This document shows, one piece after another, positions 42,813 through 43,715 of a stretch of 64,000 bases of DNA. Source of the stretch: Escherichia coli (lineage in GTDB: Bacteria; Pseudomonadota; Gammaproteobacteria; Enterobacterales; Enterobacteriaceae); assembly GCF_024223415.1 (NCBI RefSeq), contig NZ_CP100500.1; one strand, given 5' to 3'. Each line of letters begins with the position of its first letter. The stretch's first letter is position 1. Both the position numbers and the translations under genes were made by a program. The notes beneath the pieces were generated by a model. It was not told the origin of the DNA. It ran no database searches and worked only from the letters and a program-made list of their open reading frames with translations.

Positions 42813-43715
42813 TCACATTTTGTTCGTCAATAAACATGCAGCGATTTCTTCCGGTTTGCTTACCCTCATACATTGCCCGGTTTGCTTACCCTCATACATT
42901 GCCCGGTCTGCTCTTCCAATGACCACATCCAGAGGCTCTTCAGGAAATGCGCGACTGACACCTGCTGTCACGGTAATGTTGATATGCCCTTCAGAATGTG
43001 TGATGGCATGGTTATCGACTAACTGGCAAATTCTGACACCTGCACGACATGCTTCTTCATCATTAGCCGCTTTGACAATAATGATAAATTCTTCGCCCCC
43101 GTAGCGATAAACCGTTTCGTAATCACGCGTCCAACTGGCTAAGTAAGTTGCCAGGGTGCGTAATACTACATCGCCGATTAAATGCCCGTAGGTATCATTA
43201 ACCAATTTAAATCGGTCAATATCCAACAACATTAAATAAAGATTCAGAGGCTCAGCGTTGCGTAACTGATGATCAAAGGATTCATCAAGAACCCGACGCC
43301 CCGGCAATCCCGTCAAAACATCCATATTGCTACGGATCGTCAGTAAATAAATTTTGTAATCGGTTAATGCCGCAGTAAAAGAAAGTAACCCTTCCTGAAA
43401 GGCGTCGAAATGCGCGCCCTGCCAGTGATTTTCAACAATAGCCAGCATTAATTCCCGACCACAGTTATGCATATGTTGATGGGCAGAATCCATTAGCCGA
43501 ACGTAAGGTAATTCATCGTTATCGAGTGGCCCCAGATGATCAATCCACCGACCAAACTGGCACAGTCCATAAGAATGGTTATCCGTTATTTCTGGCTTAC
43601 TGGCATCTCTCGCGACCACGCTGTGAAACATACTCACCAGCCACTGGTAGTGGGCATCGATAGCCTTATTGAGATTTAACAAGATGGCATCAATTTCCGT
43701 TGTCTTCTTGATCAT
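42813..43715 (-). CDS. dgcZ: zinc-regulated diguanylate cyclase DgcZ (CZB + GGDEF), allele with altered C-terminal tail
   Basis: GGEEF motif (RYGGEEFIIIV); start at ATG 43715 with AGGAG 7 nt upstream; 3' end frameshifted by a 26-bp tandem duplication. Confidence 0.9.
   Translation of the reverse strand: MIKKTTEIDAILLNLNKAIDAHYQWLVSMFHSVVARDASKPEITDNHSYGLCQFGRWIDHLGPLDNDELPYVRLMDSAHQHMHNCGRELMLAIVENHWQGAHFDAFQEGLLSFTAALTDYKIYLLTIRSNMDVLTGLPGRRVLDESFDHQLRNAEPLNLYLMLLDIDRFKLVNDTYGHLIGDVVLRTLATYLASWTRDYETVYRYGGEEFIIIVKAANDEEACRAGVRICQLVDNHAITHSEGHINITVTAGVSRAFPEEPLDVVIGRADRAMYEGKQTGQCMRVSKPEEIAACLLTNKM
42851..42907. repeat. perfect 26-bp tandem duplication (2.2 copies) inside the 3' end of dgcZ
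   Basis: ccggtttgcttaccctcatacattgc at 42851..42876 and again at 42877..42902, then ccggt. Confidence 0.95.

What the first reader, a model, noticed from the sequence alone, without database searches (positions are those of the whole stretch)
42813..42907. 26-bp tandem duplication frameshifts the C-terminus of diguanylate cyclase DgcZ
The unit ccggtttgcttaccctcatacattgc occurs twice back to back (42851..42876, 42877..42902) plus a 5-bp partial third copy. Since 26 is not a multiple of 3, the minus-strand gene here ends …AMYEGKQTG-QCMRVSKPEEIAACLLTNKM*. Removing one copy in silico gives …AMYEGKQTG-RNRCMFIDEQNVINRV*, which is the DgcZ tail I recall for K-12; that this string appears in the alternative frame of the actual DNA makes the recollection credible. 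The allele therefore swaps the last 16 residues for 20 unrelated ones and moves the stop 14 nt upstream of its K-12-equivalent position. The changed 3' end sits next to a PhoP-box-like motif (42789..42805). It could be a slipped-strand polymorphism, an assembly artefact, or an on/off tail variant of a c-di-GMP enzyme.
Basis: partly seen in the sequence, partly recalled or inferred. Interest (0 to 1): 0.6.

Follow-up and report, generated by a model that had tools for sequence, protein, structure and literature searches.

The report
Private 26-bp duplication frameshifts dgcZ
One E. coli strain carries a perfect back-to-back 26-base duplication near the end of the well-studied c-di-GMP synthase gene dgcZ; it scrambles the last 16 amino acids, including an invariant GTP-binding arginine, so it is most likely an ordinary, strain-private knock-down or knock-out mutation.

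Summary
Window 42851-42876 and 42877-42902 are identical 26-nt copies followed by a 5-nt partial copy (CCGGT). The minus-strand gene is dgcZ. Deleting one copy restores the K-12/PDB 4H54 tail …GRNRCMFIDEQNVINRV.

The allele looks private. Every record inspected among about 5,400 matching complete E. coli genomes is single-copy, including relatives about 99.97% identical over 22 kb. The junction 29-mer is absent from the metagenome and species-representative genome collections. The frameshifted protein, on seven allele backgrounds, is absent from about 15 billion public proteins.

The ancestral sequence has ACCGG…21 nt…ACCGG, the classic substrate for replication slippage. The new tail replaces R281, which is invariant in 24/24 CZB-GGDEF relatives and equivalent to PleD R446 (a GTP β/γ-phosphate ligand). 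It also replaces the two terminal β-strands. I infer reduced or lost cyclase activity.

The "PhoP-box-like motif" lies in the promoter region of the neighbouring PhoP-activated sRNA gene mgrR and is unchanged. Nothing supports a programmed on/off switch. A local assembly or editing artefact cannot be excluded without reads. Low interest.

The parts
42851..42876 (-). 26-nt duplication, copy 1 (+ strand CCGGTTTGCTTACCCTCATACATTGC). On the coding strand this is the promoter-distal copy, read out of frame as part of …QCMRVSKP…
   Evidence: absent from K-12 and GPEC1446 in alignment A1
42877..42902 (-). 26-nt duplication, copy 2, 100% identical. On the coding strand it is read in the normal frame (…AMYEGKQTG)
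42903..42907 (-). CCGGT microhomology (ACCGG on the coding strand). Together with the CCGGT at the start of the unit, it forms the short direct repeat 26 nt apart in the single-copy ancestor that can template slippage
   Evidence: the K-12 and GPEC1446 sequences show ACCGG…21 nt…ACCGG
42813..43715 (-). dgcZ (ydeH) frameshift allele: 300 codons plus stop. CZB domain at residues 22-89, GGDEF domain at 130-281. Residues 1-280 are wild type; residues 281-300 are out-of-frame (QCMRVSKPEEIAACLLTNKM)
42799..42801 (-). Position of the wild-type dgcZ stop codon (TAA), now out of frame and unused. It overlaps the upstream hexamer of the PhoP-box-like motif
42789..42805 (-). PhoP-box-like direct repeat AGTTTA-N5-CGTTTA, at -52 to -36 relative to the MG1655-annotated mgrR 5' end. 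A third, weaker hexamer CATTGA (42778-42783) sits 12 nt upstream of a TACTGT -10-like hexamer (42760-42765). Identical in K-12, GPEC1446 and the window
   Evidence: consensus from PMC7667037; the promoter assignment is inferred
42656..42753 (-). mgrR small RNA gene (PhoP-activated), mapped from the MG1655 annotation. It lies within the Rfam STnc560 match 42574-42787 (281.9 bits). Its terminator (42663-42682) is the only terminator-like site downstream of dgcZ
   Evidence: PMC3536696

Best explanation
This is a spontaneous, strain-private tandem duplication in the 3' end of dgcZ. The ancestral single-copy sequence contains the 5-nt direct repeat ACCGG twice, 26 nt apart on the coding strand. 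During replication, the nascent strand mispaired from the second ACCGG back onto the first, so the intervening 26 nt were copied twice (inferred mechanism). Because 26 is not a multiple of 3, translation after Gly280 goes out of frame. The last 16 residues (RNRCMFIDEQNVINRV) are replaced by 20 unrelated ones, and the stop moves 14 nt upstream. The lost segment begins with Arg281 of the conserved G-R-N motif. Arg281 is the counterpart of PleD Arg446, which binds the β/γ-phosphates of GTP. The lost segment also contains the two terminal β-strands of the GGDEF fold. The CZB zinc sensor, the GGEEF active-site loop and Lys277 remain intact. The most likely consequence is therefore a cyclase with strongly reduced or no activity, that is, a loss-of-function or hypomorphic dgcZ allele, with less DgcZ-driven c-di-GMP and less poly-GlcNAc biofilm output (inferred, not measured). 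The neighbouring mgrR promoter and sRNA are unchanged. Like any perfect tandem duplication, the allele can revert precisely by the reverse slippage. That is a general property of such mutations, not evidence of a designed switch.
For: Shown:
- Perfect 2 x 26-nt duplication plus CCGGT.
- Clean 26-nt insertion relative to K-12 and GPEC1446, with ACCGG at both ends of the ancestral unit and no other change in 321 nt versus GPEC1446.
- Between window 38805 and 45165 the duplication is the only difference from GPEC1446.
- Removing one copy restores the exact 4H54/K-12 tail.
- Every listed record is single-copy: spans of 375 for 401 nt of query, 64 for 90 and 21,975 for 22,001, among 5,386-5,424 matching complete genomes.
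- The junction 29-mer has 0 hits in metagenome contigs and genome contigs.
- The variant protein is absent from about 15 billion proteins on 7 allele backgrounds, while both wild-type controls are present on at least 1,000 contigs each.
- R281 is invariant in 24/24 full-length CZB-GGDEF relatives at 30-44% identity; position 282 is N or D in 24/24; 283 is R or C in 22/24; 285-286 are hydrophobic.
- The Pfam GGDEF match loses its last two model positions and 4.6 bits.
- PleD K442 and R446 bind the GTP phosphates (PMC7288161, PMC3509222; 10.1101/2025.08.22.671821 aligns DgcZ with PleD and calls R446 highly conserved and important for catalysis).
- HMMER coordinates put DgcZ R281 opposite PleD 446.
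- In the AlphaFold2 wild-type model, residues 284-287 and 293-295 are β-strands with block-mean pLDDT 95 and 89. The variant tail drops to 74 and 55.
- Assembly quality appears good: about 30 SNPs and one 1-bp indel in about 50 kb versus GPEC1446.
Against: No reads are available, so the duplication cannot be shown to exist in the organism rather than only in the assembled or edited sequence. No activity data exist for this allele. AlphaFold2 still threads β-strands through the new tail (283-287 and 290-293), and an Arg occurs three residues later (QCMR284), so some residual activity cannot be excluded. I could not retrieve direct mutagenesis of the DgcZ R281 position; the functional importance rests on homology to PleD and on conservation. 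The exact-sequence protein look-ups would miss the same duplication on an allele background I did not test.
Confidence: 0.8

Rival explanations
1. Assembly, consensus or editing artefact: the organism has a single copy, and the second 26-nt copy was introduced by mis-assembly, polishing or later manipulation of the sequence.
For: The allele is unique among all collections searched, which is what an artefact would also look like. No read data are available.
Against: The rest of the window behaves like a high-quality assembly of a genuine, distinct strain. Differences from GPEC1446 are almost all SNPs, with only one 1-bp indel in about 50 kb. Typical assembler or polisher errors are homopolymer indels or repeat collapses, not a perfect 26-nt expansion of unique sequence (established knowledge, not tested here). 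The junction falls exactly at a 5-nt microhomology, as expected for a biological slippage event.
Confidence: 0.13
2. Functional tail variant: the 300-aa protein is still an active cyclase whose altered C-terminus changes regulation, stability or partner binding, and was selected for that reason.
For: Residues 1-280 are intact, including the CZB domain, GGEEF and K277. AlphaFold2 still places strands in the new tail. The literature shows that some 'degenerate' DGC genes in Shigella still raise c-di-GMP (PMC11327459).
Against: The invariant Arg281 (24/24) and the N/D282 position are lost, and the equivalent PleD residue is a GTP phosphate ligand (PMC7288161, PMC3509222). The new tail is simply the out-of-frame reading of existing DNA and occurs in no other sequence. 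Model confidence for the tail falls to 74 and 55. The Shigella cases keep a complete GGDEF domain, unlike this one.
Confidence: 0.04
3. Programmed, reversible on/off switch (contingency locus): E. coli toggles dgcZ by gaining and losing the 26-nt unit.
For: Perfect tandem duplications can collapse precisely, so this allele is in principle reversible (established knowledge of slipped-strand mispairing). The ancestral sequence carries the ACCGG microhomology in all three strains compared in alignment A1.
Against: No second example turned up in about 5,400 complete genomes, metagenome contigs or about 15 billion proteins. The wild-type locus is single-copy, not a repeat array, and a 5-nt microhomology is unremarkable.
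Confidence: 0.03

Closest known systems
E. coli K-12 DgcZ (YdeH), zinc-regulated CZB-GGDEF diguanylate cyclase (PDB 4H54, 3TVK, 3T9O)
   Same: Residues 1-280 match 4H54 except G100 for D100 and the crystal's engineered C52A. The Pfam architecture is the same, CZB plus GGDEF. The genomic context is the same: ydeE-mgtS-mgtT-mgrR-dgcZ-ydeI.
   Different: Residues 281-296 (RNRCMFIDEQNVINRV) are replaced by 20 out-of-frame residues. The invariant Arg281 and the terminal β-strands are lost. The protein is 300 aa instead of 296.
Microhomology-mediated (slipped-strand) tandem duplications, a classic class of spontaneous frameshift mutation in E. coli
   Same: Perfect head-to-tail copies, with unit boundaries at a short direct repeat (ACCGG) present in the ancestral sequence. 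A unit length that is not a multiple of 3 gives a frameshift.
   Different: Nothing of note; this is a textbook example. Only the particular site and gene appear to be unrecorded in the collections searched.
Natural loss of dgcZ in Shigella flexneri 2457T
   Same: It shows that dgcZ can be lost in natural Escherichia/Shigella lineages (PMC11327459 lists dgcZ as deleted).
   Different: There the whole gene is deleted. Here a 3'-terminal frameshift leaves 280 of 296 residues and is potentially revertible.
PhoP-activated mgrR promoter and MgrR sRNA (Rfam STnc560)
   Same: mgrR is directly PhoP-activated (PMC3536696).
   Different: It is not part of the duplication and is identical to K-12. By motif match alone it is not above chance in this window (23 matches versus 18 expected).

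Membership tests
DgcZ / CZB-GGDEF diguanylate cyclase | N-terminal CZB zinc-binding domain with conserved His/Cys ligands | tested here: met
   Pfam CZB PF13682 matches residues 22-89, E = 8.3e-07. H79 is invariant and H22, C52 and H83 are at least 90% conserved in the 24-sequence alignment; all are present in the window protein.
DgcZ / CZB-GGDEF diguanylate cyclase | GGDEF domain with an intact GG(D/E)EF active-site motif | tested here: met
   Pfam GGDEF PF00990 matches residues 130-281, 148.7 bits. G206-G207-E208-E209-F210 are invariant and present.
DgcZ / CZB-GGDEF diguanylate cyclase | GTP phosphate-binding pair Lys/Arg (PleD K442/R446 = DgcZ K277/R281) | tested here: not met
   K277 is retained, but R281 is replaced by Gln. 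R281 is invariant in 24/24 relatives. The residue's role comes from PMC7288161 and PMC3509222; the equivalence comes.
DgcZ / CZB-GGDEF diguanylate cyclase | Complete GGDEF fold including the C-terminal β-strands | tested here: not met
   The wild-type model has strands 284-287 and 293-295 at pLDDT about 95 and 89. In the variant this sequence is replaced, and pLDDT drops to 74 and 55. The Pfam match stops at model position 159 of 161, against 161 of 161 for wild type.
DgcZ / CZB-GGDEF diguanylate cyclase | Diguanylate cyclase activity inhibited by Zn2+ | not testable with these tools
   Requires an enzyme assay of the 300-aa protein.
Microhomology-mediated tandem duplication (slippage mutation) | Perfect head-to-tail copies whose boundaries coincide with a short direct repeat in the single-copy ancestor | tested here: met
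   Two 100% identical 26-nt copies. K-12 and GPEC1446 show ACCGG…21 nt…ACCGG at the boundaries.
Phase-variable contingency locus (slipped-strand switch) | Repeat copy number varies among strains or clones of the species | tested here: not met
   All inspected records among about 5,400 complete genomes are single-copy. The junction is absent from metagenome and genome contigs and from about 15 billion proteins.
Phase-variable contingency locus (slipped-strand switch) | A pre-existing multi-copy repeat tract in the normal allele | tested here: not met
   The wild-type allele has one copy of the 26-nt unit.
PhoP box of a PhoP-activated promoter | Direct repeat (T/G)GTTTA-N5-(T/G)GTTTA with at most 2 mismatches, near the -35 region of a PhoP-activated gene | tested here: inconclusive
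   The motif has 2 mismatches, both at hexamer position 1, and lies at -52 to -36 of mgrR, one helical turn upstream of the usual position. The motif count in the window is not above chance (23 versus 18). PhoP binding was not tested, and the primary mgrR paper was not retrievable.

The most novel reading that the evidence does not exclude
The 26-nt unit flanked by ACCGG microhomology acts as a low-frequency, reversible genetic switch. It turns DgcZ-dependent c-di-GMP and poly-GlcNAc production off (two copies) and on again (one copy). This strain was caught in the off state, or alternatively the new tail yields an active cyclase with altered regulation.
Probability: 0.04. Interest if true: 0.45.

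Novelty: new member of a known kind. Interest (0 to 1): 0.12.

Why it matters
The significance is mainly practical. Anyone annotating or phenotyping this strain should treat dgcZ as a probable pseudogene or hypomorph. They should expect weaker DgcZ-dependent, zinc- and HOCl-responsive poly-GlcNAc biofilm behaviour than in sister strains such as GPEC1446 or NCTC9112. The allele would also be a natural test of how much the conserved G-R-N arginine and the terminal strands contribute to GGDEF catalysis. It adds one more example of dgcZ being lost or damaged in a natural Escherichia/Shigella lineage. It does not reveal a new system or mechanism.

Tried and rejected
1. I looked for any other carrier of the duplication. 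Three megablast searches of 5,426 complete E. coli genomes, exact junction scans of metagenome and species-representative genome contigs, and exact protein look-ups of the frameshifted tail on seven DgcZ backgrounds were all negative. This argues against a circulating polymorphism or phase variation.
I did not repeat it, because 90%-identity clustering would hide the variant inside the wild-type cluster.
3. I tested whether the window is a noisy assembly. It is not: one 1-bp indel in about 50 kb versus GPEC1446.
4. I looked for a hairpin or inverted repeat that might promote slippage. None was found in 42780-42960.
5. I tested the PhoP-box motif statistically. It is not enriched over shuffles, so its meaning rests on its position upstream of mgrR.
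6. I tried to read Moon & Gottesman 2009 for the mapped mgrR PhoP box. It is not held, and a search linking 'STnc560' and 'MgrR' found nothing. That STnc560 is MgrR therefore rests on coordinate overlap with the MG1655 mgrR annotation.
7. I considered an effect on mgrR expression and rejected it. The promoter region and the sRNA are identical to GPEC1446, and the duplication is 46 nt or more away.
8. The AlphaFold2 comparison was used only to locate secondary structure. It is not a reliable predictor of mutational effect.

Full report
**1. The observation**

Reading window 42700-43900 shows CCGGTTTGCTTACCCTCATACATTGC at 42851-42876 and again, identically, at 42877-42902. It is followed by CCGGT, the first five bases of a third copy. 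Tandem Repeats Finder reports the array (42851-42912, period 26, 2.4 copies, score 117), and the repeat finder gives two 100% identical copies. Across the whole 64-kb window only one other tandem repeat exists, a 132-bp repeat in a prophage gene. The duplication-specific 29-mer junction occurs once in the window and in none of 100 shuffles.

The minus-strand ORF 42813-43721 is DgcZ. Its real ATG is at 43715, as in the RefSeq annotations of GPEC1446 and MG1655. It ends …AMYEGKQTGQCMRVSKPEEIAACLLTNKM. Deleting one copy in silico gives …AMYEGKQTGRNRCMFIDEQNVINRV. That is exactly the C-terminus of the crystallised K-12 protein (PDB 4H54) and of the 296-aa protein found on at least 1,000 public contigs.

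**2. How common the allele is**

The window is a stretch of E. coli chromosome, ydeP … lsr … mar … ydeE-mgtS-mgtT-mgrR-dgcZ-ydeI … Qin-like prophage.

- A 401-nt query around the site matches 5,414 of 5,426 complete genomes. Every listed record spans 375 nt in two pieces, meaning one copy.
- A 90-nt query centred on the repeat gives 64-nt spans throughout the listing.
- The closest relatives (GPEC1446, NCTC9112, KV7, SCU-316, NCTC10444) are reported as 99.9-100.0% identical (rounded) over 22 kb. The two uninterrupted best matches span 21,975 nt against 22,001 nt of query, exactly 26 fewer.
- A three-way alignment with K-12 and GPEC1446 shows a clean 26-nt insertion and no other difference from GPEC1446 in 321 nt.
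- The junction 29-mer is absent from the metagenome collection and from the one-genome-per-species collection.
- The frameshifted protein is absent from about 15 billion public protein sequences. I tested the 300-aa and 302-aa start variants on the window's own background, plus the same tail grafted onto six other common DgcZ alleles. Both wild-type controls were found.

On this evidence the allele is private to this sequence.

**3. Is it an artefact?**

I cannot see reads. Against GPEC1446, the window shows about 30 scattered SNPs, IS-element differences and only a single 1-bp indel across roughly 50 kb. It is therefore a genuine, distinct strain assembled to high quality, not a noisy long-read draft. 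Between 38805 and 45165 the duplication is the only difference. A perfect expansion of unique sequence bounded by a microhomology is what biology produces and is not a typical assembler error. I nevertheless keep an artefact, or a later edit, as a 13% rival.

**4. Mechanism of origin**

On the coding strand the single-copy ancestor reads …GCAG-ACCGG-GCAATGTATGAGGGTAAGCAA-ACCGG-AAGAAAT…. The two ACCGG pentamers are exactly 26 nt apart. Mispairing of the nascent strand from the second pentamer back onto the first duplicates the unit. This is the standard slipped-strand, microhomology-mediated duplication mechanism (established knowledge; inferred here). No inverted repeat is present that could contribute.

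**5. Consequence for the protein**

Pfam finds CZB (residues 22-89) and GGDEF in both versions. The GGDEF match ends at model position 159 of 161 (148.7 bits) in the variant, against 161 of 161 (153.3 bits) in wild type.

A search of 1.84 billion representative proteins returned many full-length CZB-GGDEF relatives. In an alignment of 24 of them at 30-44% identity:

- R281 is invariant (24/24).
- Position 282 is N or D (24/24).
- Position 283 is R or C (22/24).
- Positions 285-286 are hydrophobic.

The variant has Q-C-M-R-V-S at these six positions (281-286).

In PleD, K442 and R446 bind the phosphates of GTP (PMC7288161; PMC3509222, citing Wassmann 2007). A 2025 preprint aligns DgcZ with PleD and describes R446 as highly conserved and important for catalysis (10.1101/2025.08.22.671821). 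HMMER coordinates against native-length PleD (9g85_A: query 283 aligns with 448) place DgcZ R281 opposite R446 and K277 opposite K442.

An AlphaFold2 model of the wild type (mean pLDDT 92.9) shows helix 262-278, the G-R-N turn, and β-strands 284-287 and 293-295 at high confidence. In the variant model, the block-mean pLDDT falls to 74 for residues 281-290 and 55 for 291-300.

I therefore infer a strongly impaired or dead cyclase. This is inference from conservation and homology, not a measurement, and residual activity is possible. DgcZ makes the c-di-GMP that drives poly-GlcNAc biofilm, and it is regulated by CsrA, zinc and HOCl (PMC8262984). The expected phenotype is loss of that output. Natural loss of dgcZ has precedent: it is deleted in S. 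flexneri 2457T (PMC11327459).

**6. The PhoP-box remark**

Rfam finds STnc560 at 42574-42787 on the minus strand (281.9 bits). The MG1655 annotation places mgrR 45 nt downstream of the dgcZ stop, which maps to window 42656-42753. mgrR is directly PhoP-activated (PMC3536696).

A third, weaker hexamer (CATTGA, 42778-42783) lies 12 nt upstream of a TACTGT -10-like element (42760-42765).

At this stringency the motif is not enriched over shuffles in the window (23 matches versus 18 expected), so only its position gives it meaning. It is identical in K-12, GPEC1446 and the window, and it lies 46 nt or more from the duplication. The wild-type dgcZ stop codon sits inside the upstream hexamer, and the new stop is 8 nt before the motif. 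No terminator separates dgcZ from mgrR. I see no reason to expect an effect on mgrR.

**7. Switch or variant enzyme?**

A contingency locus requires copy-number variation among strains and usually a pre-existing repeat tract. Both features were tested and not met. A selected 'new tail' is unlikely, because the tail is only the out-of-frame reading of existing DNA, removes an invariant active-site residue and occurs nowhere else. The allele can revert by precise loss of one copy, but that is true of any tandem duplication.

**8. Verdict**

This is a previously unrecorded but mechanistically ordinary frameshift allele of a well-characterised gene, most likely a loss-of-function mutation private to one strain. 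Confidence is 0.8 and interest is low (0.12).

Noticed in passing
window 12812-12828 (-): A perfect match to the PhoP-box consensus (TGTTTAGTCACGGTTTA, 0 mismatches). It lies about 230 nt upstream of a fimA-like fimbrial subunit ORF (11974-12585, minus strand), between that gene and an HTH pseudogene. It is the only zero-mismatch site in the 64-kb window, which might hint at PhoP control of this cryptic fimbrial operon.
   Followed up: no
window 56013-56311: The only other tandem repeat in the window: a 132-bp unit (44 codons), 2.3 copies, 92% matches. By coordinate transfer from GPEC1446 it lies inside a prophage tail-fibre gene.
   Followed up: no
window ~16300 (junction): Relative to GPEC1446, the window lacks 3,276 bp (a multiple of 3) inside the 5.4-kb ECSE_1600-family autotransporter gene next to hipBA. 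This may be an in-frame deletion of passenger-domain sequence.
   Followed up: partly
window 27059-27068 and ~5620; 8243-8946 and 10484-11334: Relative to GPEC1446, the window lacks the IS1 insertion in tam and the ISSen4 insertion in ydeP. It carries about 700 bp and about 850 bp of extra sequence in the fimbrial usher/chaperone region that is a pseudogene remnant in GPEC1446.
   Followed up: partly
window 42580-42753: The small-protein gene mgtT (+ strand, about 42580-42684 by transfer from GPEC1446) overlaps the 3' end of mgrR (- strand, 42656-42753) tail to tail, including the mgrR terminator hairpin (42663-42682). The Rfam STnc560 model (214 nt) covers both.
   Followed up: partly
window 42750: A single SNP in MgrR at position +4 relative to K-12 (C in the window and GPEC1446, T in MG1655 on the RNA strand).
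   Followed up: no
window 56511-64000: Identity to GPEC1446 drops from about 99.9% to 97.7% (175 differences in 7.5 kb) on entering the Qin-like prophage tail region. This suggests a different or recombined prophage in this strain.
   Followed up: no
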